Assembly: GCA_019638525.1 (NCBI GenBank)
Contig: JAHBTO010000008.1
Location: 21,535 to 85,534 of the forward strand
Reading direction: 5' to 3'
Length of the DNA stretch: 64,000 nt
Source of the DNA: Ferruginibacter sp.
Lineage (GTDB): Bacteria; Bacteroidota; Bacteroidia; Chitinophagales; Chitinophagaceae
Shown in pieces: positions 13,592-60,007 of this stretch. Position 1 is the first letter of the stretch. Every line of letters begins with the position of its first letter. Under the pieces are notes generated by a model. The model worked only from the letters and a program-made list of their open reading frames with translations, did not search any database and was not told the DNA's origin. A program made the translations under genes and the position numbers.

Positions 13592-13626
13592 AAAGTTAAA
13601 AGTTATTGGCTATAAGTTATAAGTTT
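13592..13626. repeat. short heptanucleotide-period array (AAAGTTA/TAAGTTA type)
   Basis: aaagtta|aaagtta|ttggcta|taagtta|taagttt, in the divergent spacer between the aminotransferase and the THUMP methyltransferase. Confidence 0.5.
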
Positions 13627-25514: not shown

Positions 25515-26747
25515 CTACATACCCATTTTCTTTTTCAAATTGGCATCAATAGCATCTAAAAATTCTTCGGTATATAAATAATGTTCGCCGTGGTTTACTT
25601 TATTACCATGTATGCAAACAGCCAGGTCTTTTGTCATCTTGCCGCTTTCTACCGTTTCAACGCAAACAGTTTCCAGTGCGTGGCAAAATTCAATTAATGG
25701 TTGGTTGTTATCTAATTTACCTCTAAAGGCCAGGCCCCTCGTCCATGCAAAAATTGAAGCAATAGGATTGGTAGATGTTGGCCGCCCCTGCTGATGCTCC
25801 CTGTAGTGGCGTGTTACAGTACCGTGTGCTGCTTCGGCTTCCATGGTTTTACCATCGGGTGTAACCAAAACAGAAGTCATTAAACCCAGCGATCCAAATC
25901 CCTGGGCTACTGTATCGCTCTGTACATCGCCATCATAATTTTTACAGGCCCAAACAAAATTGCCGTTCCATTTTAAGGCGCTTGCTACCATATCATCAAT
26001 CAGGCGGTGTTCGTACACAATACCTGCCTCGGTAAATTTTTGTTTAAATTCTGTTTGATAAATGTTTTCAAAAATATCTTTAAAACGACCGTCGTATTTT
26101 TTAAGAATAGTGTTTTTGGTAGATAGGTACAAAGGCCATCCTTTGCTTAAAGCCATATTAAAGCAACTGCGTGCAAAACCAATGATGCTTTCGTCGGTAT
26201 TGTACATGCTCATGGCTACACCATCGCCTTTAAAATTATACACTTCAAAAACCTGTGGCTCACCACCGCCTTCGGGTGTAAAAGTCATGGTTAATTTTCC
26301 TTTGCCTTTTATCACCGTATCAGTAGCCCGGTATTGATCGCCAAAAGCATGGCGGCCAACAATGATTGGCGCTGTCCAGTTATTTACTAACCGGGGCACA
26401 TTTTGCATAACTATGGGTTCACGAAAAACAGTGCCGTCTAAAATATTACGTATGGTGCCGTTTGGCGATTTCCACATTTGTTTAAGGTTAAATTCTTTCA
26501 CCCTTGCTTCATCAGGCGTAATGGTAGCGCACTTAATGCCTACGCCACAAGCTTTAATTGCATTGGCCGCATCAATAGTTACCTGGTCGTTGGTTGCATC
26601 CCTGTGTTCAATACCCAAATCAAAATACTGGATATTCACATCCAAGTACGGAAGTATCAGTTTGTCTTTAATAAATTTCCAGATGATACGTGTCATCTCA
26701 TCGCCATCTAATTCAACTACGGGGTTTGTTACTTTAATCTTTGCCAT
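25515..26747 (-). CDS. NADP-dependent isocitrate dehydrogenase, eukaryote-like homodimeric subfamily II
   Basis: 410 aa. [36 protein letters not shown]...[43 protein letters not shown] is the characteristic IDH1/IDH2-type sequence. Confidence 0.92.
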
Positions 26748-26769
26748 ACTTTTTTTTTATGTACAATTT

Positions 26770-26888
26770 AAAATCAAAAATCAAAAATCAAAAGTCAAAA
26801 GTCAAAAATCAACATTCATAATTCACAATTCACAATTCACCATTCATAATTCAAAATTCAACATTCATCACCCAACATTCAAAATTCA
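26770..26888. repeat. 17-unit degenerate heptanucleotide tandem array (nnAnTCA)
   Basis: aaaatca x3, aaagtca x2, aaaatca, acattca, taattca, caattca x2, ccattca, taattca, aaattca, acattca, tcaccca, acattca, aaattca. It fills the whole icd-idh spacer. The last TCA is the complement of the icd TGA stop. Confidence 0.9.
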
Positions 26889-28196
26889 AAGACTACTGCT
26901 TTTCTTCAACTGCACTTCTCCGGTTACCAGGCCCATGTTTTCGATAAGGGTATTGCCAAACTCCGAAGTTTTGAGTAGGGTGGCTCCGCTCATGAGATTA
27001 TAAAAATCTATGGTTACGGTTTTTCGCATAATGGTAGCTTGTAATGCAGATGTTATCAAATCAGCCGCTTCTTTCCAGCCAATATATTCCAACATCATGC
27101 ATCCGCTTAAAATTACCGAAGAAGGATTCATACTATCGGTACCGGCAAATTTTGGCGCTGTGCCATGGGTAGCTTCAAACACGGCATAACCTGTTTTGTA
27201 ATTGATGTTGGCGCCGGGGGCTATGCCAATACCGCCCACTTCGGCAGCAAGTGCATCCGAAATATAATCGCCATTAAGGTTAAGGGTGGCCACCACCGAA
27301 AAATCTTTTGGGGCAATCAGTATCTGCTGTAAAAAATTATCGGCAATAATATCTTTTACTAAAAGTTTTCCTTCGTGTAATGCTTTGCGTTGTATTTCGT
27401 TGGCGTGGGCTTCGCCCTGTTCTTTTTTCAGTTCATCCCATTCGTCCCAGGTAAAAGTTTTACCGGCAAATTCCTGTCGTGCCACTTCGTATCCCCATTT
27501 TTTAAAACCACCTTCGGTGTATTTCATAATATTGCCCTTATGCACCAATGTTACCGAGGGCAGGTTGTTTTTTAATGCATGTTCAATAGCCGCTCTCACA
27601 AGCCTTTTACTGCCTTCCGACGAAACAGGTTTTACCCCATAACTTGAGCTGCCCGGGAAACGAATATTTTTTACACCCATTTCCTCCACCAAAAATTTTT
27701 CAAACTTATTTGCTTCTGCCGAACCGGCCTGCCATTCAATACCTGCATAAATATCTTCGGTGTTTTCCCTAAAAATTATCATGTCCACATTTTCGGGATG
27801 AGTTACCGGCGATGGTACACCTTTAAACCATTTTACCGGCCTTACGCAGGCAAACAAATCAAGATCTTGCCGCAAAGCCACATTTAAAGAGCGTATGCCG
27901 CCTCCAATAGGTGTAGTTAACGGGCCTTTAATAGAAACAATAAATTCTTTGGCTGTTTGTAAGGTTTCGGCCGGTAGCCAATTGCCGGTAAGTTTAAATG
28001 CTTTTTCGCCTGCCAGCATTTCTCTCCATTCAATTTTACGGGTGCCGTTGTAAGCCTTTTCCACTGCAGCATCAAATACTTTTTGAGCCACCTGCCATAT
28101 TTCGGGGCCAATACCATCGCCTTCAATAAAAGGTATAATAGGATTACCAGGTACACTCAGCACACCGTTGCTACCCATAGTAATTTTTTCTGCCAT
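26886..28196 (-). CDS. icd: NADP-dependent isocitrate dehydrogenase, prokaryotic subfamily I (E. coli Icd type)
   Basis: 436 aa. Matching segments are [62 protein letters not shown], and an end of ..[10 protein letters not shown] plus 15 extra residues. Confidence 0.92.
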
Positions 28197-34770: not shown

Positions 34771-34874
34771 TGTAAATTCTCCGCTGCAAAGATACAAAGT
34801 TCATTTTTGGGGTAGTGGAAGGCTATTTATGGTTTTAGGAATTTCTTTGGCTTACCACCTGCCATGTCTTAATA

Positions 34875-34909
34875 ACTTTTGAGTTTCAACTTTTCACTTT
34901 TAACTTAAT
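34875..34909. repeat. short heptanucleotide-period array (ACTTTTn type)
   Basis: acttttg|agtttca|acttttc|actttta|acttaat, directly upstream of thyA. Confidence 0.4.
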
Positions 34910-35797: not shown

Positions 35798-37429
35798 ATG
35801 AAAACATTTATTACTACCTGCACATTTATTTTTTACTTTTTGTGTGTTGCCGCACAGCCTACACAACACCTGCTTTCCGATACACTTTTAAGAGAGCAAA
35901 AAGAAAATGTAATTACGGCATCCACCATCATACAGGTTGAAAACCTGGGCGAAGATATCAATACCTTTCACCCCGAAATGCGGCCTACCATTTCAGCCGA
36001 TGGCAACCTGTTATTTTTTATCCGCCAAAACGACCCGGCAAATATCCAGTATGCTACAGTTCCTAATTCGCAGGATATATGGTATTCTACCAGGGATAGT
36101 TTAGGAAATTGGAGCAAAGCAAAACACCTTAGTGCAAAAGTAAATGCATCGCAATACAATGCCGTGTACTGGATATCGCCTGATTTGAATACAATTTTAT
36201 TGAAAGGCGCTTTTATTGACGGCCAGTACTTGGGAATGGGTGTTAGCATGATAAAAAAAAGAAAAGACAATAGCTGGACAAATGCAGAGATGCTGAAAAT
36301 AAGGAAACTGGAAAAATTTAGCACCACACCTCAGTTTGGGGCAAGCATGGGGCATAATGGTAAAGTGCTTTTGTTTTACATGACCGATAAGAAGGGAAGT
36401 TTTGATAATGATATTTATGTTTCTTTTTTAGAAGGCAATGATATATGGACAGCGCCTAAAAGCCTGGGTAAAAAAATAAACCTGCCCGATTATAACGAAA
36501 TGAGTCCTTTTATTGCAGCCGATGGAGTTACACTTTATTTTGCAAGCGACAGGCCCGGTGGCATTGGCGAAATGGATATCTGGATGAGTAAAAGGCTTGA
36601 TGATAGCTGGACAAAATGGAGCGACCCTGTGAATGTGGGCAAACCTATCAATACCGAAGGTTCCGAAGCTTTTTTTACATTGGATGCCGGTGGCGAATAT
36701 GCTTACCTCACAACGAGCAATGGAGCTTATGGTGCAAGCGATATTGTTAGAGTAAAGCTGCTGGAGAAAGTAATGCCCAACCCGGTGGTGCTTGTTACCG
36801 GCAATGTGTATAATGCAAAAACAAAAGAGCCTTTATCTGCATCTTTAGTTTACGAAACATTGCCCGATGGAACCGAAGTGGGCACAGGCGTATCTAGCCC
36901 GGTTGACGGCTCTTTTAAGATTGTACTTCCTTACGATAAAAATTACAGTATTAGGGCGGCAGCCGATAAATTTTTTGCCATTTCTGAAAACCTGAATTTA
37001 GATTCGTTGATTAAAGCAGGTTATAAAGTAATTCATAAGGATTTGTATTTAGCGCCTATTGAAATAGGACAGGTATTCAGGTTGAACAATGTGTTTTTTG
37101 ATTTTGATAAATACAGCCTGCGGCCCGAGTCGTTTGTGGAATTAGACAGGGTGGTTAATTTCCTGAACGAATATCCCAATATTGAGATTGAAATGAGCGC
37201 ACATACTGATAGTAAAGGCGCCGATGAATATAATATGGTATTGAGTGATAACCGGGCAAGATCGGTGATGGAATATATTTTATCGAAAGGGATTGCCGCA
37301 TCAAGAATTGTATCGCATGGCTATGGCGAAACCAAACCTGTGGCCCCCAATACCAATCCCGATGGATCTGATAACCCCGATGGAAGGCAGTTGAACAGGA
37401 GGGTTGAGTTTAAGATTTTGAAAAATTAA
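35798..37429 (+). CDS. OmpA-family protein with TolB-like WD40 repeats and CarboxypepD_reg-like domain
   Basis: It has a signal peptide and repeated PxxSxDG..LYF motifs. The C-terminal OmpA domain reads FDFDKYSLRPES...LSDNRARSVMEYILSKGI..SRIVSHGYGETKP. Confidence 0.85.
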   Translation: MKTFITTCTFIFYFLCVAAQPTQHLLSDTLLREQKENVITASTIIQVENLGEDINTFHPEMRPTISADGNLLFFIRQNDPANIQYATVPNSQDIWYSTRDSLGNWSKAKHLSAKVNASQYNAVYWISPDLNTILLKGAFIDGQYLGMGVSMIKKRKDNSWTNAEMLKIRKLEKFSTTPQFGASMGHNGKVLLFYMTDKKGSFDNDIYVSFLEGNDIWTAPKSLGKKINLPDYNEMSPFIAADGVTLYFASDRPGGIGEMDIWMSKRLDDSWTKWSDPVNVGKPINTEGSEAFFTLDAGGEYAYLTTSNGAYGASDIVRVKLLEKVMPNPVVLVTGNVYNAKTKEPLSASLVYETLPDGTEVGTGVSSPVDGSFKIVLPYDKNYSIRAAADKFFAISENLNLDSLIKAGYKVIHKDLYLAPIEIGQVFRLNNVFFDFDKYSLRPESFVELDRVVNFLNEYPNIEIEMSAHTDSKGADEYNMVLSDNRARSVMEYILSKGIAASRIVSHGYGETKPVAPNTNPDGSDNPDGRQLNRRVEFKILKN

Positions 37430-37513
37430 AAAGATAAAAGACAAAATTCAAAAAGCGGAGCAAGTGTACAAGTTTTTTATTTTTACTTTTGTTTTTTTAC
37501 TTTTAACTTAAAT

Positions 37514-38017
37514 ATGCTCTCCCTCATTGTTGCCGCCGCCGAAAATAATGTGATTGGTAAAAACAACCAGCTATTATGGCATTTACCTAACGACCTTAAA
37601 TTTTTTAAGAACACTACCTGGGGCATGCCCGTCATTATGGGCCGTAAAACTTTTGAATCGGTTAATAAGCCATTGCCCGGCAGGTTTAATTTTGTGATAA
37701 CCCGGCAACCCGGCTGGAAGGTAGAAGGGGTAACGGTTGCAGCAAACCTGCAGGATGCTTTAGCAAAAGCTGCAGCAACAAATTGCAAAGAAATTTTCAT
37801 TATTGGAGGCGGCGAAATTTACAAACAAGCAATAGAGATTGCCGATAAAATTATTATGACAAGGGTACATACTACACTAGACGGCGATACTTTTTTTCCT
37901 GAAATTGATGAAAAAAAATGGCAACTAATAACTAACCAGGATTTTGCTATAGATGATAAACATCAATATGCATATTCATTTCAAATATGGGAAAGGAGAG
38001 AGAAAGGCAAGAGGTAA
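37514..38017 (+). CDS. folA: dihydrofolate reductase
   Basis: LSLIVAAAENNVIGKNNQLLWHLPNDLKFFKNTTWGMPVIMGRKTFES is canonical DHFR. The thyA...folA neighbourhood supports the call. Confidence 0.93.
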   Translation: MLSLIVAAAENNVIGKNNQLLWHLPNDLKFFKNTTWGMPVIMGRKTFESVNKPLPGRFNFVITRQPGWKVEGVTVAANLQDALAKAAATNCKEIFIIGGGEIYKQAIEIADKIIMTRVHTTLDGDTFFPEIDEKKWQLITNQDFAIDDKHQYAYSFQIWERREKGKR

Positions 38018-38023
38018 AAATAA

Positions 38024-38114
38024 AAAGTCAAAAGTCAAAAATCAAAAATCAACATTCATCATCCAACATTCAACATTCATCATTCATCATTCAAAATTCA
38101 TAATTCAACATTCG
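38024..38114. repeat. 13-unit degenerate heptanucleotide array, same family and same strand as 26770-26888
   Basis: aaagtca x2, aaaatca x2, acattca, tcatcca, acattca x2, tcattca x2, aaattca, taattca, acattcg. It begins 6 nt after the folA stop and ends 10 nt before the next start. Confidence 0.9.
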
Positions 38115-38124
38115 CCATTAAAAA

Positions 38125-38922
38125 TTGTATTCCCGTTTTAAAATAGCAAAAAAATACATTCATTATTGGCTTACAGCATCCAATGGAAAAGGCCATGGCA
38201 TTCATTCACCTTTTGTATTTGATTTTATTAAGAATGTGCTAAACGATTCAACAAATTATCCCTGCTATCAATCTATTGAAGGCATACGAAAAAAAATGCT
38301 CGGCAATAAAAACATTATTGAAGTGGAAGATTTTGGCGCCGGTTCTTCTGTTATCAAAACAAAAAAACGCATGGTGAAAGATATTGCGGCGTCATCGCTC
38401 AAACCAAAAAAATATGCACAGCTTTTATATCGCATGGTAAAATACTATAAGCCCCAATCTGTAATTGAACTTGGTACTTCGTTTGGTATCAGCAGCGCTT
38501 ACCTTGCATCGGCAAATGAAAGTGCCGAAGTAAACACCTGCGAGGGCGATTCATCTATTGCATCAATAGCAAATAAAAATTTTGAAACGTTACATTTAAA
38601 AAATATCCAATTAATACAAGGCGATTTTGCAAAAACATTACCCCAACTCTTATCAAAATTAAAAGCTGTTGACTTTGCTTTCATTGATGGCAATCACCGC
38701 AAACTGCCAACTCTTGCGTACTTTAATCAACTTCTTGCATCATCAATTGCTACTACCATATTTGTTTTTGATGATGTACACTGGAGTAGCGAAATGGAAG
38801 ATGCCTGGGAACAAATCAAGAAGCATACTGCAACCACTTTAACCATCGACCTGTTTTTTATCGGCATCGTTTTTATCAACCCCAATTTTAAGATTCCTCA
38901 ACATTTTACAATACGGTTTTAA
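38125..38922 (+). CDS. class I SAM-dependent (O-)methyltransferase
   Basis: TTG start in the track. The SAM motif is VIELGTSFGISSAYLA, and FAFIDGNH follows, typical of family-3 O-methyltransferases. Confidence 0.75.
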   Translation: MYSRFKIAKKYIHYWLTASNGKGHGIHSPFVFDFIKNVLNDSTNYPCYQSIEGIRKKMLGNKNIIEVEDFGAGSSVIKTKKRMVKDIAASSLKPKKYAQLLYRMVKYYKPQSVIELGTSFGISSAYLASANESAEVNTCEGDSSIASIANKNFETLHLKNIQLIQGDFAKTLPQLLSKLKAVDFAFIDGNHRKLPTLAYFNQLLASSIATTIFVFDDVHWSSEMEDAWEQIKKHTATTLTIDLFFIGIVFINPNFKIPQHFTIRF

Positions 38923-42008: not shown

Positions 42009-43412
42009 TTGGATTTACCACCTGCACTGTTACAATCTTTACAAAATGTAAAAGGCTTTAATCAAGAAGCTTTTATACAAGTACATCAATCGGGCCAACA
42101 AATTACTTCCATAAGGCTCAACCCGGAAAAATTAAAAATTCAAAATTTAAAATTCAAAACAGAGGGACATGTTTTGTGGAGTTCACTTGGCTATTATTTA
42201 CCGTCAAGGCCATCTTTTACCCTCGATCCGCTTTTTCATGCAGGCGCCTATTATGTACAGGAAGCAAGCAGTATGTTTTTAGAAGAAGTCATTAAACAAA
42301 AAGTTGACCTTTCAAAACCCTTAAAAATATTAGACCTCTGTGCTGCGCCGGGCGGCAAATCTACTTTAATTCAATCCATCATTTCTAAAGAAAGTTTGCT
42401 GGTAAGTAACGAAGTGATAAAAACAAGGGTGAATATCTTATCAGAAAATATTACCAAATGGGGAGCTGCAAACGTAATTGTTACCAATAACGACCCGAAA
42501 GATTTTGAAAAACTAAAAAATTATTTTGATGTAATTGTGGTAGATGCTCCCTGCAGCGGCAGCGGGCTTTTTAGGAAAGACCCCAACGCTATTGGTGAAT
42601 GGAGCCAAGCCAATGTTGCATTGTGTGCACAGCGGCAGCAAAGAATTCTGGCTGATATACTTCCTTCACTAAAAGCAGGCGGCTGTTTGTTTTATTCTAC
42701 CTGTTCTTTTTCGCCGCAGGAAGATGAAGATGTGCTTGATTGGTTAATACATGAATTTTATACAGATGATAAAATTGCCACAATGGAGAGCTTGAGATTT
42801 ATGCTTGAAGATGATTGGGGAATTGTGGAAACGGTTTCTGATAAAACCAATGCGTATGGATACCGGTTTTACCCCGGTAAAGTTAAAGGGGAAGGTTTTT
42901 TTATTGCAGGGTTTAAAAAAGCGGATGTTGAAGATGGAGGCAGCCAAACTGCTCATCGCAACAAAAAAATTAAAAAAACATTTGAAAAACTCAGTAATAC
43001 TCAAATACTAATTGTACAACCATATCTTTTACATGCAAATGATTTTTTCTTCATTAAACAAAATGAAGATGTGCTGGCCATACCTATGCAGCTTGAAAAG
43101 GAACTGGAAACCTTACAACATATTTTATATATTAAAAAAGCCGGTATTAAACTGGGCACCATCATACGCAACGAACTGGTGCCGGCACACGAACTTGCAG
43201 TAAGCAATATCATTAACACAAATGTAAACCGATGTGAGGTTGATTTAGAAAATGCTTTGCAATATTTACGCAAACAGGAGTTAAAAATTGAATGTCCTTA
43301 CAATGGTTGGGTAATACTTACTTATAAAAATTTACCGTTAGGATGGATTAAAGTAATTGGCAATCGTATTAATAACTATTATCCATCTGCATGGCGTATC
43401 CTTAACAAATGA
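42009..43412 (+). CDS. rRNA cytosine-C5 methyltransferase, NOL1/NOP2/Sun (RsmF/RsmB-like)
   Basis: TTG start in the track. Motifs are FHAGAYYVQEASSM, LDLCAAPGGKST, VVDAPCSGSGLFRKDP (motif IV Cys) and LFYSTCSFSPQEDE (motif VI Cys). Confidence 0.85.
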   Translation: MDLPPALLQSLQNVKGFNQEAFIQVHQSGQQITSIRLNPEKLKIQNLKFKTEGHVLWSSLGYYLPSRPSFTLDPLFHAGAYYVQEASSMFLEEVIKQKVDLSKPLKILDLCAAPGGKSTLIQSIISKESLLVSNEVIKTRVNILSENITKWGAANVIVTNNDPKDFEKLKNYFDVIVVDAPCSGSGLFRKDPNAIGEWSQANVALCAQRQQRILADILPSLKAGGCLFYSTCSFSPQEDEDVLDWLIHEFYTDDKIATMESLRFMLEDDWGIVETVSDKTNAYGYRFYPGKVKGEGFFIAGFKKADVEDGGSQTAHRNKKIKKTFEKLSNTQILIVQPYLLHANDFFFIKQNEDVLAIPMQLEKELETLQHILYIKKAGIKLGTIIRNELVPAHELAVSNIINTNVNRCEVDLENALQYLRKQELKIECPYNGWVILTYKNLPLGWIKVIGNRINNYYPSAWRILNK

Positions 43413-45754: not shown

Positions 45755-45756
45755 TT

Positions 45757-45885
45757 TATTTTATAACCGCAGAGACGCAGAGACGCTGAGGCGCTAAGGT
45801 TTTGTTTTATAACCGCAGAGGCGGAAAGGCGCAGAGGTTTTGTTATATAACCGCTGAGGCGCAGAGACGCTAAGGTGCGGAGATA
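45757..45885. repeat. GC-rich nested direct repeat: three ~38-46-bp units, each TATAACCGC plus 3-4 octamers (WGAGRCGC)
   Basis: TATAACCGC occurs at 45762, 45808 and 45846. The octamers read agagacgc|agagacgc|tgaggcgc|taagg.. The repeat fills the convergent spacer between the C1 peptidase and fmt. Confidence 0.8.
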
Positions 45886-48725: not shown

Positions 48726-48751
48726 ACTAAAATAACTATTTAATCATCATT

Positions 48752-48784
48752 AGCAGTTTGTAAAAGCAAGCTGCTTTTTTTTTT
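48752..48784 (+). terminator. rho-independent terminator after the FKBP gene
   Basis: AGCAGTTTG..CAAGCTGCT forms a stem with one mismatch, followed by a run of 10 T. Confidence 0.6.
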
Positions 48785-48822
48785 GGAAGCTGCGTTAAAT
48801 TTTTTACCTGCATTTTTAATTA

Positions 48823-48864
48823 TCCATTATCAATTATACATTCTACATTATCAATTATACATTA
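48823..48864. repeat. 6-unit heptanucleotide array (TnnATTA type), near-identical to 58784-58825
   Basis: tccatta|tcaatta|tacattc|tacatta|tcaatta|tacatta. 39 of 42 positions are identical to the copy downstream of acd, on the same strand. Confidence 0.85.
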
Positions 48865-48874
48865 TATTTATAGT

Positions 48875-51876: not shown

Positions 51877-52551
51877 ATGTTTAATATCTTGTTACAGATC
51901 GACAGTACAGCTGTTGTAAATTCATCCTCAGGTAAAGAATCTCTTTTTTCATTATTGGTAAAAGGCGGCGTATTGATGATACCGCTTGCCATTTTTATGG
52001 CTATGGCCATTTTCTTTTTTATAGAGCGGCTTATTGCCATCCGCAAAGCAAGCAGGATAGATGATAATTTCATGAACATTATTCGTGATAATATCATCAG
52101 CGGTAATGTATCTGCTGCAAGGAGTCTTGCAAAAAATACACCCAACCCTGTGGCTAAGATGATTGACAAAGGCATTCAACGTATAGGTAAACCCATTGAT
52201 GCTATTGAGCGTAACATGGATAATATTGGTAAACTGGAGATTTATAAAATGGAAAAAAACCTGCCGGTACTTTCCGTTATTGCCCGTATTGCGCCATTGT
52301 TTGGTTTTGTGGGTACCATCATCGGGTTGGTAATGTTGCTGAGAGATTTTGCTGCGGCTGCCAATCCATCCATCACCGATATTGCCGATGCTATGTATGT
52401 AAAAATGATTACTTCTGCCACCGGGCTTATCATCGGTATCTTATCTTATTTAGGATACAGTTATTTAAATACACAAATTGATAAAACGGTTCACAAGATG
52501 GAAACATCAAAGGCGGATTTTATAGATATATTACAGGAGCCGACGAAGTAG
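51877..52551 (+). CDS. exbB: MotA/TolQ/ExbB proton-channel protein
   Basis: 224 aa with 3 TM helices. The region LSVIARIAPLFGFVGTIIGLV is typical of ExbB/TolQ. Confidence 0.88.
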   Translation: MFNILLQIDSTAVVNSSSGKESLFSLLVKGGVLMIPLAIFMAMAIFFFIERLIAIRKASRIDDNFMNIIRDNIISGNVSAARSLAKNTPNPVAKMIDKGIQRIGKPIDAIERNMDNIGKLEIYKMEKNLPVLSVIARIAPLFGFVGTIIGLVMLLRDFAAAANPSITDIADAMYVKMITSATGLIIGILSYLGYSYLNTQIDKTVHKMETSKADFIDILQEPTK

Positions 52552-52603
52552 GGAGTAGCAGGTAGCAGGTAGTAAGTAGCAGGTAGTAAGTAGCAGGTTG
52601 TTA
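52548..52603. repeat. 8-unit heptanucleotide array (GTAGCAG/GTAGTAA)
   Basis: gtaggga|gtagcag|gtagcag|gtagtaa|gtagcag|gtagtaa|gtagcag|gttgtta. The first unit contains the exbB TAG stop. Confidence 0.88.
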
Positions 52604-52613
52604 GATTTAAGGA

Positions 52614-52676
52614 AAGTTAAATTCAAAATTCAAAAGTAAAAAGTAAAAAATTCAACATTCAATATTCATAATTCAA
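52614..52676. repeat. 9-unit A/T-rich heptanucleotide array (ATTCAAA/AGTAAAA)
   Basis: aagttaa|attcaaa|attcaaa|agtaaaa|agtaaaa|aattcaa|cattcaa|tattcat|aattcaa. It ends 4 nt before the exbD ATG. Confidence 0.8.
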
Positions 52677-52680
52677 TAGC

Positions 52681-57470: not shown

Positions 57471-58358
57471 TTATTTAAATCGCTCACTCACTACAAGCTC
57501 TTTGCTGCCGGCAGTATAAGTATAAAAACCTTCGCCGCTTTTTACGCCTAGTTTTCCGGCCAATACCATATTTACTAACAACGGGCAGGCTGCATATTTA
57601 GGATTGCCAAAACCATCCTGCAAAACTTTTAATATGCTTAAACAAACATCAAGGCCAATAAAATCAGCCAGTTGCAGGGGGCCCATCGGGTGTGCCATTC
57701 CAAGTTTCATTACTGTATCAATTTCTTCTACTCCGGCTACGCCTTCGTACAAACTGTAAATGGCTTCATTAATCATGGGCATTAAAATACGGTTGGCAAT
57801 AAAGCCGGGGTAATCATTTACGGCGCAGGGTATTTTACCAAGCTGCTTGCTTAATTCAACAATTGTTGCGGTAACTTCTTTTTTTGTTGCATAGCCATTT
57901 ATTATTTCCACCAGTTTCATAACAGGCACCGGGTTCATAAAATGCATGCCAATAACTAACCCCGGCCTTTTGGTTACCGCTGCTATTTTTGTAATGGAAA
58001 TTGATGAAGTGTTGGTTGCCAGTATGCATCCCGCCGGTGCATACATATCCATTTGTTCAAAGATGGATAATTTAAGATCTACATTTTCGGAAGCAGCTTC
58101 TACAACAAGTTCTGCATTTTTTACACCTTCGGCAATGATTGATGTAACGGTAATATTAGCCAGTGTTGCTTTTTTCTGCTCTTCGGTAATTGTTCCTTTT
58201 AAAAGTTGCCTGTCTAAATTTTTATTAATTGTATCCATAGCCCTTTGCAACTGCGATGGATTTACATCAACTAAATTAACTGTAAAACCGTTTTGTGCAA
58301 ATACGTGAGCTATTCCATTTCCCATGGTGCCGGCGCCTATAACTGAAATATTTTTCAT
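57471..58358 (-). CDS. hbd: 3-hydroxybutyryl-CoA / 3-hydroxyacyl-CoA dehydrogenase
   Basis: ISVIGAGTMGNGIAHVFAQNGFTVNLVD (Rossmann), HFMNPVPVMKLVEI, GFIANRILMPMINEA. Confidence 0.92.
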   Translation of the reverse strand: MKNISVIGAGTMGNGIAHVFAQNGFTVNLVDVNPSQLQRAMDTINKNLDRQLLKGTITEEQKKATLANITVTSIIAEGVKNAELVVEAASENVDLKLSIFEQMDMYAPAGCILATNTSSISITKIAAVTKRPGLVIGMHFMNPVPVMKLVEIINGYATKKEVTATIVELSKQLGKIPCAVNDYPGFIANRILMPMINEAIYSLYEGVAGVEEIDTVMKLGMAHPMGPLQLADFIGLDVCLSILKVLQDGFGNPKYAACPLLVNMVLAGKLGVKSGEGFYTYTAGSKELVVSERFK

Positions 58359-58410
58359 AATGTAAAATGTATAATATATAAAGTAAAATGTATAATGTAA
58401 AATGTATAAT
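58359..58410. repeat. 7-unit heptanucleotide array (AATGTAW), inverted relative to 58784-58825
   Basis: aatgtaa|aatgtat|aatatat|aaagtaa|aatgtat|aatgtaa|aatgtat. It contains three copies of AATGTATAAT, the reverse complement of the ATTATACATT core repeated in 58784-58825. Confidence 0.8.
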
Positions 58411-58781
58411 TAGTTTTGGTTTGGGATTAAGTTATTCCTACTTGTTTTTAAAATTGATGTTAGAATTTTTATAATCTCAATCAATGTTAAATGAATACTG
58501 TTAAATTCATCTTCTGTTATATAATCTGTTTCTTTCAATAACCTTAACCAATAACTTGTTTCTTGTGCCTCCTTCAGTGAAATTGACAACTTTGCAACAA
58601 AATCTTTCTTTGAAAATCCCTGTAACCCTTCATTAACATTAGCTCCAATTGAAGTACCTGAACGAAGTAGTTGTTTGCTTAAAACAAATTCCCTTTTGTT
58701 TTAAGCCAGTTGTTTGTAAAGCCTCACTATCCTTGCAGCAAACTCAAAACTCTTTACCTCTATTATATTATTGATTTTCAT
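58410..58781 (-). pseudogene. four-helix-bundle protein gene (23S rRNA intervening-sequence protein / Avd family) with in-frame TAA at codon 27
   Basis: My codon-by-codon minus-strand translation gives MKINNIIEVKSFEFAARIVRLYKQLA*NKREFVLSKQLLRSGTSIGANVNEGLQGFSKKDFVAKLSISLKEAQETSYWLRLLKETDYITEDEFNSIHLTLIEIIKILTSILKTSRNNLIPNQN*. The family signature is LLRSGTSIGAN..E......F..KL.I..KEA.ET.YWL.LL. The stop lies at 58701-58703. The ORF track misses this gene because the nonsense codon splits it. Confidence 0.78.
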
Positions 58782-58783
58782 AC

Positions 58784-58825
58784 CCAATTATCAATTATAC
58801 ATTATACATTATCAATTATACATTA
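58784..58825. repeat. 6-unit heptanucleotide array (TnnATTA)
   Basis: ccaatta|tcaatta|tacatta|tacatta|tcaatta|tacatta. The last unit contains the complement of the acd TAA stop (58823-25). Confidence 0.85.
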
Positions 58826-60007
58826 TTTAAACGCATTCATCCCCGTAACATCCATCCCAGTAATTAATAAATGTATATCATGCGTTCCTTCGTATGTAAT
58901 TACACTCTCCAGGTTCATCATGTGGCGCATCACGGGGTATTCGCCTGTAATGCCCATGCCGCCAAGCATTTGACGGGCAGCCCTGCAAATATTGGTAGCT
59001 GTTTCGCAGGCATTTCTTTTAGCCATGCTTACCTGTTGAGGCGTTACCTTTCCTTCGTTCATCAAAACACCCAGCCGCCAGTTTAATAATTGCGCCTTGG
59101 TTATTTCGGTAACCATCTCGGCCAATTTTTTTTGTTGCAACTGGAAAGCGCCAATTGGTTTTCCAAACTGTATTCTTTCTTTGCTGTATTGTAAAGCTGT
59201 ATCATAACAATCCATGGCAGCGCCAATAGCGCCCCAGGCAATACCATATCTTGCTTTTGTTAAACATCCCAGCGGCCCTTTCAATCCTTTAATGTTTGGA
59301 AAAATATTTTCTTTAGGCACTTTTACATTATCAAACACCAGCTCACCGGTGGCGCTTGCACGCAGGCTCCATTTGCCATGCGTAGTTGGTGTGCTAAAAC
59401 CTTCCATGCCTCTTTCTACAATCATTCCTTTTATTTCGCCGGCTTCGTCTTTAGCCCATACTACAGCCAGCTGGCTATATGGTGCGTTGCTAATCCACAT
59501 TTTAGCCCCGTTTAAAATAACATGGTCGCCGGCATCTTTAATATTGCTGAGCATACTGCTGGGGTCGCTGCCATGATTAGGTTCTGTTAATCCAAAACAA
59601 CCCAACCACTCGCCACTTGCAAGCTTGGGCAAATATTTTTTTCGTTGCTCTTCGCTACCGTACTGGTAAATAGGATACATCACCAGGCTGCCCTGCACGC
59701 TGGCTGTTGACCGTACACCACTATCGCCACGTTCCAGTTCCTGCATCATCAAACCATAACTAATGTAATCCAACCCGCCGCCGCCATATTGCTCAGGAAT
59801 GGTAGGGCCAAAGCAACCAAGTTCGCCCATTTGCTTTACAATCTGTTGAGGAAATTCGGCACGCTGTGCATAGTCTTCTATGATTGGTGAAATTTCTCTC
59901 TTTACATAATTCCTCACACTCTCTCTTATAAGTTTATGTTCATCGGTAAGCAATTCATCAACATTAAAATAATCGGGCGATTGAAAATTATCCGTTTTAG
60001 CAGCCAT
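58823..60007 (-). CDS. acyl-CoA dehydrogenase, glutaryl-CoA-dehydrogenase-like
   Basis: 394 aa. GCFGLTEPNHGSDPSSM closely resembles the GCDH active-site region. The C-terminus has YEGTHDIH. Confidence 0.92.
   Translation of the reverse strand: MAAKTDNFQSPDYFNVDELLTDEHKLIRESVRNYVKREISPIIEDYAQRAEFPQQIVKQMGELGCFGPTIPEQYGGGGLDYISYGLMMQELERGDSGVRSTASVQGSLVMYPIYQYGSEEQRKKYLPKLASGEWLGCFGLTEPNHGSDPSSMLSNIKDAGDHVILNGAKMWISNAPYSQLAVVWAKDEAGEIKGMIVERGMEGFSTPTTHGKWSLRASATGELVFDNVKVPKENIFPNIKGLKGPLGCLTKARYGIAWGAIGAAMDCYDTALQYSKERIQFGKPIGAFQLQQKKLAEMVTEITKAQLLNWRLGVLMNEGKVTPQQVSMAKRNACETATNICRAARQMLGGMGITGEYPVMRHMMNLESVITYEGTHDIHLLITGMDVTGMNAFK

What the first reader, a model, noticed from the sequence alone, without database searches (positions are those of the whole stretch)
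26770..26888. Family of degenerate heptanucleotide-period tandem arrays occupying intergenic spacers (STRR-like)
At least ten spacers in this window are built from imperfect 7-nt tandem units:
- 13592-626 (AAAGTTA)
- 26770-888 (nnAnTCA, 17 units)
- 34875-909 (ACTTTTn)
- 38024-114 (nnAnTCA, 13 units)
- 48823-64 and 58784-825 (TnnATTA)
- 52548-603 (GTAGCAG/GTAGTAA)
- 52614-76 (ATTCAAA/AGTAAAA)
- 58359-410 (AATGTAW)
- a weaker tract at about 37481-508

The period is strictly 7, so the arrays cannot be coding. When mistranslated they produce the 7-aa-periodic junk peptides seen in track ORFs 26362-27003 and 37953-38141 (..KSQKSTFIIHNSQFTIHNSKFNIHH..). Different arrays use different unit sequences, but the architecture is the same.

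Tandem heptanucleotide intergenic repeats are known as STRR sequences in heterocystous cyanobacteria. I am not aware of an equivalent description for Bacteroidota. Function is open: slippage-driven spacer-length variation, DNA structure, protein binding and 3'-UTR elements are all possible.
Basis: partly seen in the sequence, partly recalled or inferred. Interest (0 to 1): 0.58.

Follow-up and report, generated by a model that had tools for sequence, protein, structure and literature searches.

The report
Heptamer repeat arrays between genes
The tract between two isocitrate dehydrogenase genes is a real run of 7-base repeats, one of about a hundred in this Ferruginibacter-like genome. It belongs to a known but unexplained repeat class; here the arrays change length by whole units, and many form hairpin arms around a small 'intervening-sequence protein' gene.

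Summary
Tandem Repeats Finder finds period-7 arrays at all ten listed sites. Genome-wide there are 85-91 intergenic period-7 arrays, against about 2 in dinucleotide shuffles and 3-11 for periods 6, 8, 9 and 10.

The arrays are strand-asymmetric: one strand lacks C and the other lacks G. Between this genome and a sister species (about 92% identical) they sit at the same sites but differ by 21, 42, 42 and about 64 nt, as slippage by whole units would give. More distant congeners lack them or carry other units at the same junction.

Where two arrays share a spacer the order is always G-type then C-type (10/10), and about half are complementary. Five of seven S23p (PF05635) genes here, and 21 of 26 in congeners, are flanked by such arrays. 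One S23p pseudogene lies in this window (58458-58757).

The focal array is a solo array, unstructured as RNA, and solo arrays show no orientation bias. I read it as slippage-prone spacer DNA of the STRR / long-SSR kind, not a dedicated signal.

Heptamer arrays are already published for cyanobacteria, Xanthomonas, Beggiatoaceae and five Bacteroidetes. This scan has also noted them on over 100 other genomes. The S23p link is the part I did not find in papers.

The parts
26765..26890 (.). Focal heptamer array, 18 units. On the + strand: about 6 AAAARTC units, then about 11 NNATTCA units. It fills the spacer between icd (26886-28196, -) and the second IDH gene (25515-26747, -). On the gene-sense (-) strand it reads TGAATNN / TGAYTTT, starting with the icd stop codon TGA.
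   Evidence: 138-nt spacer against 98 nt in the sister species
38016..38113 (.). [quoted passage not shown] It lies between folA (37514-38017, +) and a methyltransferase gene (38125-38922, +).
   Evidence: RNA MFE 0 kcal/mol; spacer 107 against 65 nt in the sister species, a difference of 6 units
48819..48866 (.). C-type array (ATTATAC, 6.9 units) ending 8 nt before the M20 peptidase start codon. It lies downstream of a classic hairpin plus U-run terminator of the FKBP gene.
   Evidence: spacer 149 against 128 nt in the sister species, a difference of 3 units
52546..52598 (.). G-type array (TAGCAGG/TAGTAAG) that starts at, and is in register with, the exbB stop codon TAG.
52619..52676 (.). C-type array (AAATTCA-like) ending 4 nt before the exbD start codon. 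It is not complementary to the G-type array in the same spacer.
   Evidence: (z +0.9)
58785..58826 (-). 5' arm (G-type TAATGTA/TAATTGA on the - strand) of the S23p cassette. It starts at, and is in register with, the acyl-CoA dehydrogenase stop codon TAA.
58458..58757 (-). S23p / 23S_rRNA_IVP (PF05635) gene with one in-frame TAA. It is a pseudogene here and is intact in the sister species.
   Evidence: (E 8.6e-29), 57, 28/59
58357..58410 (-). 3' arm (C-type ACATTAT-like on the - strand) of the S23p cassette. It ends at the hbd start codon and pairs with the 5' arm in the predicted RNA fold.
13593..13625 (.). Weak 7-nt tract (4.7 units, 73% matches) in a divergent spacer. It is identical in the sister species.
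34874..34906 (.). Weak period-7/14 tract (ACTTTTC-like) 11 nt before a start codon. The spacer has the same length in the sister species.
37474..37509 (+). U-rich arm of an A-arm/U-arm hairpin after gene 35798-37429. It looks like a terminator, and the spacer has the same length in the sister species.
42127..42159 (.). AAAAATT array (4.7 units) that the finding did not list. It lies inside a crude ORF that starts at TTG 42009, and this segment differs from the sister species.

Best explanation
The focal tract and its companions are long simple-sequence repeats with a 7-nt unit, of the STRR / 'LSSR' kind, in a Ferruginibacter-like Chitinophagaceae genome.

Shown:
- They are far more frequent than chance allows.
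- They are confined to spacers.
- They gain and lose whole units between sister species.
- They are replaced by other units, or absent, in more distant congeners.

Inferred:
- They arise and change by replication slippage.
- They nucleate at sequences that can be duplicated harmlessly. One such place is the stop-codon heptad at a gene's 3' end. Another is the two sides of an intergenic inverted repeat; independent expansion of the two sides would by itself give complementary arms with locus-specific units.
- The stems around S23p (IVS-protein) genes are one frequent nucleus of this kind.
- Arrays then grow until they press against the coding sequence or the promoter.

Solo arrays such as 26765-26890 have no partner, no RNA structure and no preferred orientation. 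They most likely act only as expandable spacer DNA. This one separates the icd stop codon from the likely promoter of the second IDH gene. It is not a dedicated signal.

Paired arrays form long stems in the operon transcript, or cruciform-prone DNA. Such a stem would bring the upstream stop codon next to the downstream start codon.
For: - Enrichment: 85-91 intergenic period-7 arrays against 1.9 in shuffles and 3-11 for neighbouring periods.
- Unit-wise change at conserved sites: spacers of 107 against 65, 149 against 128, 138 against 98 and 464 against 528 nt in G000 against sister species G041. The flanking genes are 88-99% identical.
- Turnover at the IDH-upstream spacer: 29-730 nt in 24 congeners, mostly without arrays.
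- Turnover at the exbB-exbD junction: 2-164 nt, with about ten species carrying different 7-9-nt arrays.
- Stop-codon register: of 18 informative arrays that abut a stop codon, 8 have their stop-triplet register on the real stop codon, where 1/7 is expected (p 0.002).
- No structure: the focal + strand folds at -1.3 kcal/mol, the - strand has z -0.2, and 38010-38130 folds at 0 kcal/mol.
- No orientation bias for solo arrays: 9 G against 6 C at stops and 6 G against 8 C at starts (p 0.47).
- Complementary, cassette-specific arms: in 13 of 15 cassettes the true partner is the best pairing arm (p 2e-7).
- Arm lengths vary independently: about 6 against 15 units in the 5' arm and 7.7 against 5.7 in the 3' arm.
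- The literature proposes polymerase slippage as the cause of the heptamer excess.
Against: - Slippage alone does not explain why the order is G-type then C-type in 18 of 19 informative pairs.
- It does not explain why one block order (AAAARTC, then ATTTACY, then NATTCAN) recurs at ten or more loci. That recurrence looks like dispersal of a common element.
- Arrays are tightly linked to S23p genes in cis. They are nearly absent from the two S23p-free congeners sampled. Both points fit a dependence on the cassette.
- No expression data, strain-level polymorphism data or mutation-rate data were available.
- Gene starts come from a crude ORF map.
Confidence: 0.55

Rival explanations
1. The arrays are the arms and footprints of an IVS-like selfish cassette with the layout G-arm, S23p gene, C-arm. 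The cassette settles exactly between a stop codon and the next start codon of co-directional genes. After the ORF decays or is lost, paired arms remain, and later solo arms such as the focal array.
For: - 5 of 7 own S23p genes have arrays on both sides, against 19 of 2872 genes overall (Fisher p 1.5e-10).
- 21 of 26 congener cassettes have an array on at least one side, against 7 arrays in 66.7 kb of background.
- Cassettes fill the spacer from stop codon to start codon, for example between the ATP synthase beta-type and epsilon genes and between acd and hbd.
- 3 of 7 copies carry independent TAA nonsense codons.
- Congener G017 has a full cassette directly upstream of its IDH gene (L023).
- Solo arrays share units with cassette arms: TGAATTA/ATTCATA, ATAATGT/ATTATAC, AACATTC.
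- S23p-free congeners G003 and G018 have 0.5 arrays per 100 kb, against 2.5-15 in most S23p-rich ones.
Against: - About 90% of arrays have no S23p gene nearby.
- No S23p remnant is seen in the focal spacer, and hairpin spacers of 95 nt are too short to hold one.
- G024 and G002, with one S23p hit each, have 6-9 arrays per 100 kb.
- The correlation of array density with S23p density is weak (rho 0.50, p 0.08, n 13, not independent).
- The commonest units (AAAATTC, AAAAGTC) are not S23p arms in this genome.
- The same data fit S23p genes settling into pre-existing hairpins.
Confidence: 0.25
2. The arrays are functional cis elements, selected for what they do. C-type (G-free, start-codon-free, unstructured) arrays would be landing pads for Shine-Dalgarno-independent translation in Bacteroidota, or binding sites for S1, Csp or Rho. 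G-type arrays would supply stop codons in all three frames. Unit number would tune expression.
For: - C-type arrays end a median of 8.5 nt before start codons and G-type arrays begin a median of 4 nt after stop codons.
- C-type RNA has essentially no structure.
- Arrays sit inside operons that need balanced expression, such as exbB-exbD.
- MacGregor 2015 proposed translational regulation for TAACTGA repeats upstream of start codons.
Against: - The position rule comes from the paired spacers only; solo arrays show no orientation preference.
- The G-then-C order is unchanged when the other strand is read, so it carries no information about the direction of transcription.
- The same composite lies sense to its genes at 38016-38113 and antisense at 26765-26890.
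- Most congeners lack arrays at the same junctions.
- Unit number differs by 3-6 units between sister species with no sign of constraint.
- The focal array lies upstream of the likely -7 promoter box of the IDH gene (inference).
Confidence: 0.15
3. The arrays are chance low-complexity sequence of an AT-rich genome, or an assembly artefact.
For: The genome has 37% G+C and the units are AT-rich. Draft assemblies often break at repeats.
Against: - There is a 45-fold excess over dinucleotide shuffles, and it is specific to period 7.
- The same arrays occur at the same sites in an independently assembled sister species.
- The arrays lie inside contigs, flanked by intact genes.
Confidence: 0.01

Closest known systems
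STRR (short tandemly repeated repetitive) heptanucleotides of heterocystous cyanobacteria. Calothrix PCC 7601 is cited in PMC4692102; the reference to Mazel et al. 1990 is from my own knowledge.
   Same: Tandem 7-nt units, many dispersed copies, intergenic location, several unit families per genome, function unknown.
   Different: The host is in Bacteroidota. The units are AT-rich and different. The STRR units as I recall them (CCCCAGT, TTGGTCA, CAACAGT) are never tandem here.
Heptanucleotide long simple-sequence repeats of prokaryotes (Mrazek et al. 2007, as summarised in PMC4679880 and PMC4692102)
   Same: Arrays of 5-11-nt units longer than chance, with heptamers the dominant class. They are mostly intergenic, and slippage is proposed as the cause.
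   Different: That work is a statistical survey. It does not describe hairpin pairing, the G-then-C order, stop-codon register or a link to S23p, as far as the summaries I read show.
GGGAATC repeats of Xanthomonas and GGGGAYT repeats of Nostoc (Rehm et al. 2015, PMC4692102)
   Same: 89-93% are intergenic. They occur mostly between co-oriented ORFs, close to the end of the 5' neighbouring ORF, on either strand. Length and sequence vary between close species at conserved sites.
   Different: Those units are G-rich and form quadruplexes. Here each unit has at most one or two G and no G-runs, and these units are not tandem in this genome.
TAACTGA direct repeats of Beggiatoaceae, cyanobacteria and five Bacteroidetes (MacGregor 2015, PMC4679880)
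   Same: Intergenic heptamer arrays, often just upstream of start codons. In Gramella, Aequorivita and Elizabethkingia they sit among 'other heptamer direct repeats', and close relatives lack them at the same junction.
   Different: TAACTGA itself occurs as a tandem pair only once here. No link to S23p or to paired arms is reported in the sections I read.
23S rRNA intervening sequences carrying an S23p ORF (Coxiella, Leptospira; Warrier et al. 2016, PMC4990558, abstract seen)
   Same: A PF05635 ORF enclosed by complementary arms that form a long stem in the host transcript. It is described as a selfish element and the ORF is often decayed.
   Different: Here the cassette sits between protein-coding genes of operons, not in helix 25 or 45 of 23S rRNA. 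The arms are tandem heptamers. Excision by RNase III is untested.

Membership tests
Heptanucleotide long SSR / STRR-like repeat class | Tandem head-to-tail copies of a 7-nt unit, longer than chance allows | tested here: met
   TRF gives 18.1 copies at 26765-26890. There are 85 intergenic arrays against 1.9 in shuffles.
Heptanucleotide long SSR / STRR-like repeat class | Predominantly intergenic and dispersed over the genome | tested here: met
   91 of 108 arrays with score >=40 lie mostly outside crude ORFs, on 17 contigs.
Heptanucleotide long SSR / STRR-like repeat class | Unit-number variation between close relatives | tested here: met
   Differences of 21 and 42 nt (twice), about 40 nt and about 64 nt at conserved sites against sister species G041. 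Same-species data were not available.
STRR in the strict sense (cyanobacterial STRR1-3) | Unit sequences CCCCAGT, TTGGTCA, CAACAGT (recalled from memory) in a heterocystous cyanobacterium | tested here: not met
   No tandem pairs of these units. The nearest named relatives are Ferruginibacter / Chitinophagaceae.
TAACTGA repeat family (MacGregor 2015) | Direct repeats of TAACTGA | tested here: not met
   433 single occurrences but only 1 tandem pair in 3.41 Mb.
S23p / IVS-type cassette (applies to 58357-58826 only) | ORF of family PF05635 (23S_rRNA_IVP) | tested here: met
   Window 58458-58757 (-) matches with E 8.6e-29 and has one in-frame TAA.
S23p / IVS-type cassette (applies to 58357-58826 only) | Complementary arms that close a stem around the ORF | tested here: met
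   The arms pair in the MFE and centroid folds. The true partner ranks first in 13 of 15 cassettes.
S23p / IVS-type cassette (applies to 58357-58826 only) | Insertion in 23S rRNA (helix 25 or 45) | tested here: not met
   The cassette lies between the acyl-CoA dehydrogenase and 3-hydroxyacyl-CoA dehydrogenase genes. Another lies between ATP synthase genes.
S23p / IVS-type cassette (applies to 58357-58826 only) | Excision of the stem-loop from the transcript by RNase III | not testable with these tools
   This needs RNA end mapping in wild type and an rnc mutant.
S23p / IVS-type cassette (focal array 26765-26890) | S23p ORF or a partner arm in the same spacer | tested here: not met
   The 138-nt spacer is the array plus about 28 nt. 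There is no PF05635 hit and no fold.
Known structured RNA families (Rfam 15) | Match at gathering score | tested here: not met
   No matches in the 64-kb window.

The most novel reading that the evidence does not exclude
Heptamer arrays of the STRR type are not independent slippage products. They are the arms and decay products of a widespread, undescribed selfish cassette (G-arm, S23p/Avd-like gene, C-arm). This cassette would live in operon transcripts the way S23p-bearing intervening sequences live in 23S rRNA. It would sit exactly between a stop codon and the next start codon and fold out of the way. If so, the arrays that have puzzled workers since 1990 in cyanobacteria, Xanthomonas and Bacteroidota would have one common origin, and S23p would have a role tied to these repeats.
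Probability: 0.25. Interest if true: 0.8.

Novelty: new member of a known kind. Interest (0 to 1): 0.45.

Why it matters
Heptanucleotide arrays are the dominant long simple-sequence repeat in many bacteria, and no function or origin has been established for them (PMC4692102 says no detailed literature exists). This genus offers a convenient natural experiment. Congeners range from 0 to 15 arrays per 100 kb. The same operon junction has been colonised independently by different units. A sister species shows unit-wise change.

Four regularities seen here give testable handles on origin:
- the fixed G-type then C-type order
- locus-specific complementary arms
- register with the stop codon
- the tight cis link to S23p genes

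Practically, the arrays create junk ORFs and contig breaks that annotators of Bacteroidota genomes should recognise.

Tried and rejected
- **Rfam.** There was no hit in the window at gathering score. There was also none on the array-rich C6/C9 repeat at E<=0.1.
- **Same-species polymorphism.** No same-species contig was found. An exact 27-mer had no hit in genome contigs, and the best metagenome IDH match was 95% aa. I used a sister species instead.
- **Gene-relative polarity.** I first read the polarity as 'G-type after stops, C-type before starts'. I rejected this as a gene-relative rule for two reasons. It vanishes for solo arrays. The G-then-C order is also the same on both strands, so it cannot report the direction of transcription.
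- **Within-spacer complementarity in this genome.** The same-spacer against cross-spacer control failed (p 0.63), because units are shared between loci. The test worked across congeners, where units differ.
- **RNA-level against DNA-level pairing.** Comparing sense and antisense duplex energies gave no bias (7 against 8), so the result is inconclusive.
- **Array density against S23p density.** Across 13 genomes the correlation was only weak (rho 0.50, p 0.08). Other periods correlated better (rho 0.81), so the link is not specific to period 7.
- **Promoter scan.** I did not use the sigma-70 promoter scan, because Bacteroidota promoters differ.

Full report
**Observation**

The sequence at 26770-26888 is a tandem array with a 7-nt period. 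TRF reports 26765-26890 with 18.1 copies, 81% matches and 1% indels. On the + strand it has two blocks: about six AAAARTC units, then about eleven NNATTCA units.

Pfam names the flanking genes:
- two isocitrate dehydrogenase genes around the focal array
- folA and a methyltransferase gene around 38016-38113
- an FKBP gene and an M20 peptidase gene around 48819-48866
- exbB and exbD around 52546-52676
- acyl-CoA dehydrogenase and 3-hydroxyacyl-CoA dehydrogenase genes around 58357-58826

**More than chance**

I laid the whole genome (3.41 Mb, 33 contigs, 37% G+C) in the script box and made a crude longest-ORF map (2872 ORFs, 90% coding). I then ran TRF.

In 335 kb of intergenic DNA, arrays with score >=40 number 91 for period 7, against 3, 6, 6 and 11 for periods 6, 8, 9 and 10. 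Ten dinucleotide-preserving shuffles of the intergenic segments give 1.9 period-7 arrays on average, with a maximum of 4, against 85 observed. In total 108 arrays cover 5.3 kb, with median length 39 nt and maximum 169 nt. The window is five times denser than the genome.

**Anatomy**

- *Strand asymmetry.* Each array has one strand with almost no C ('G-type': TGAATTA, TAATGTA, TAGCAGG, TTTTGAC) and the other with almost no G ('C-type': AATTCAN, CATTCAA, ATTATAC).
- *Recurrent block order.* One order of blocks recurs at ten or more loci: AAAARTC, then often ATTTACY, then NATTCAN. The focal array and 38016-38113 both have it, both on the + strand, although their genes are on opposite strands.
- *Register with the stop codon.* Arrays commonly begin at the stop codon itself. 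The icd stop TGA is the first triplet of the first TGAATTT unit. The exbB stop TAG opens a run of TAGCAGG units. The acd stop TAA opens TAATGTA units. Of 18 informative arrays that abut a stop codon, 8 have their stop-triplet register exactly on the real stop codon, against 1/7 expected (p 0.002).
- *No RNA structure in solo arrays.* The focal + strand folds at -1.3 kcal/mol. Its - strand folds at -16.9 kcal/mol, which is no better than shuffles (z -0.2). The stretch 38010-38130 folds at 0 kcal/mol.
- *Likely promoter position.* In congeners a TAnnTTTG-like box lies 20-30 nt upstream of the IDH start codon. That this is the Bacteroidota -7 promoter consensus is my own knowledge. By alignment, the focal array lies between the icd stop codon and this likely promoter. 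This step is inference.

**Evolution**

The nearest named relatives are Ferruginibacter and other Chitinophagaceae MAGs, with 92% aa identity in IDH.

In 24 congeners the orthologous IDH-upstream spacer is 29-730 nt long. Most have no array, some have arrays of other units, three carry small inserted genes, and one (G017) carries a full S23p cassette. Only 3 of 71 metagenomic IDH loci have a period-7 array upstream.

A sister species, G041, is about 92% identical in DNA and syntenic across the window. It has arrays at the same sites with different unit numbers:

| Spacer (window) | G000 (nt) | G041 (nt) | Difference |
|---|---|---|---|
| 26748-26885 (focal) | 138 | 98 | 40 nt |
| 38018-38124 | 107 | 65 | 42 nt = 6 units |
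| 48726-48874 | 149 | 128 | 21 nt = 3 units |
| 52552-52680 | 129 | 114 | 15 nt |
| 58359-58822 (S23p cassette) | 464 | 528 | 64 nt |

The three weak tracts (13593-13625, 34874-34906, 37474-37509) lie in spacers of identical length in both species. The last one is the U-rich arm of an A/U hairpin. I set these three apart from the dynamic arrays.

The exbB-exbD junction is 2-164 nt long in 29 congeners. About ten of them carry different 7-9-nt arrays or repeat-armed hairpins: TTATGAG/ACTTATA, TGAATTA, GATGAGW, CATTCGT and ACGAATTAC. The same operon junction has therefore been colonised repeatedly and independently.

Array density in 74-200-kb samples of 12 congeners ranges from 0 to 15 per 100 kb.

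**Pairs, hairpins and S23p**

In all ten co-directional spacers that hold both types, the order is G-type then C-type. Among congener S23p cassettes it is 8 of 9 informative cases. Together that is 18 of 19 (p 4e-5).

This order reads the same on either strand. It is therefore a property of the pair and says nothing about the direction of transcription. The apparent rule 'G-type after stops, C-type before starts' disappears for solo arrays.

About half of the pairs are complementary.

The genome has seven PF05635 (23S_rRNA_IVP, S23p) genes. Five have arrays on both sides, against 19 of 2872 genes overall (p 1.5e-10). All seven are co-oriented with their neighbours, and each cassette fills its spacer from stop codon to start codon. 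One sits between the ATP synthase beta-type and epsilon genes.

One of the seven lies in the window at 58458-58757 (-), between arrays 58785-58826 and 58357-58410. These arrays pair in the predicted fold. This copy has an in-frame TAA. Two other copies have TAA at different codons, so these are independent pseudogenes. The G041 ortholog is intact.

In 26 congener cassettes, 21 have an array on at least one side, against 7 arrays in 66.7 kb of background. The arm units differ from cassette to cassette, for example AGCTGTG/CAGCTCA, GTTGGAG/CCAACCT and GGGATTA/TCCTAAT. Yet in 13 of 15 cassettes the true 3' arm is the best partner of the 5' arm (p 2e-7).

Sense and antisense pairing are equally good, so pairing at the RNA level and at the DNA level cannot be told apart.

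**Interpretation**

The arrays belong to the known class of heptanucleotide long SSRs. I think the most economical account is slippage that starts from heptads that can be copied harmlessly. These are the stop-codon heptad and the two sides of an intergenic inverted repeat. Independent expansion of the two sides of a stem gives complementary, locus-specific arms without any further mechanism. It also fits the independent arm lengths seen between G000 and G041.

The focal array is a solo array without partner, structure or orientation preference, so I take it to be expandable spacer DNA.

This account leaves three things unexplained: the G-then-C order, the recurrent block order and the strength of the S23p link. 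These keep alive the rival that arrays are arms and relics of an IVS-like S23p cassette. I give that rival 0.25.

One speculative reason for the order follows from how the transcript emerges. In either transcript the G-arm emerges first and can capture the G-free, C-containing arm as that arm emerges. This could deny Rho an unstructured C-rich loading site. I could not test this.

**Comparison with what is known**

- Mrazek et al. 2007 found heptamers to be the most abundant long SSR class and proposed polymerase slippage (as summarised).
- Rehm et al. 2015 described intergenic GGGAATC (Xanthomonas) and GGGGAYT (Nostoc) arrays. They lie near the 5' neighbouring ORF, on either strand, and vary between close species.
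- MacGregor 2015 described TAACTGA arrays, including arrays in five Bacteroidetes that sit among 'other heptamer direct repeats'.
- None of these published units is tandem here.
- S23p-bearing intervening sequences are known in 23S rRNA (PMC4990558).
- I found no paper that ties S23p to heptamer arrays. The library is not complete.

Earlier notes of this scan report the same class, the G-then-C order and the S23p link on more than 100 other genomes. I tested these points here independently.

**Verdict**

This is a new, dense member of a known and unexplained repeat class, with an unpublished but recurrent link to S23p cassettes.

Noticed in passing
G000:C6:19700-21930 and G000:C9:10320-10745 (loci L267, L268), outside the window: A tandem composite repeat of about 345 bp. 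Each unit holds the heptamer module (AAAARTC blocks, then NATTCAN blocks) and a unique part with a terminator-like hairpin (CCCGAAAACG...CGTTTTCGGGG plus a T-run). There are four copies on C6, one interrupted by a stretch of about 0.9 kb whose content I did not examine, and one copy on C9. No Rfam match. It could be a small-RNA gene array.
   Followed up: partly
window 45776-45876: GC-rich nested direct repeat (38-nt period holding CGCAGAGG/CGCAAAGG octamers) in the convergent spacer 45755-45885. It is unlike the AT-rich heptamer arrays.
   Followed up: no
loci L019, L024, L027 (IDH-upstream spacer of congeners G011, G024, G020): The spacer that holds the focal array here carries 590-730-nt insertions with small ORFs in three congeners. 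By eye two look like a toxin-antitoxin pair with a PIN domain and one looks like a Uma2-type endonuclease. I did not test these. The junction seems to be an insertion hotspot.
   Followed up: no
G000:C32:90260-90568 (just beyond the window) and G041:C1:52587, G005:C271:13929, G023:C78:24468, G017:C10:63111: One S23p domain lies in an open frame of 283-292 aa in five congeners. This is more than twice the usual S23p length. It may be a fusion with, or read-through into, the neighbouring gene.
   Followed up: no
loci L386, L411, L412 (exbB-exbD junctions) and L011 (IDH upstream): A second dispersed repeat vocabulary in congeners: 8-9-nt units ACGAATTAC / AATTCGTGT that form hairpin arms. Arrays with periods 6, 8, 9 and 10 also track S23p density across genomes (rho 0.81).
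   Followed up: partly
window 37430-37513: Hairpin with an A-rich arm and a U-rich arm (-14.8 kcal/mol) after gene 35798-37429. It has the same length in the sister species, with changes on both arms. It is probably an AT-rich intrinsic terminator.
   Followed up: partly
window 42009-42200: The AAAAATT array at 42127-42159 lies inside the longest ORF, which starts at TTG 42009. The sister species has a different sequence there. Either the true start is downstream of the array or the array encodes a variable N-terminal segment.
   Followed up: no
window 26886-28196 and 25515-26747: Two isocitrate dehydrogenase genes of different subfamilies lie head to tail on the - strand. Both match Pfam Iso_dh, at 436 and 410 aa. 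In several congeners the upstream gene is only 67-68% identical or is replaced.
   Followed up: partly
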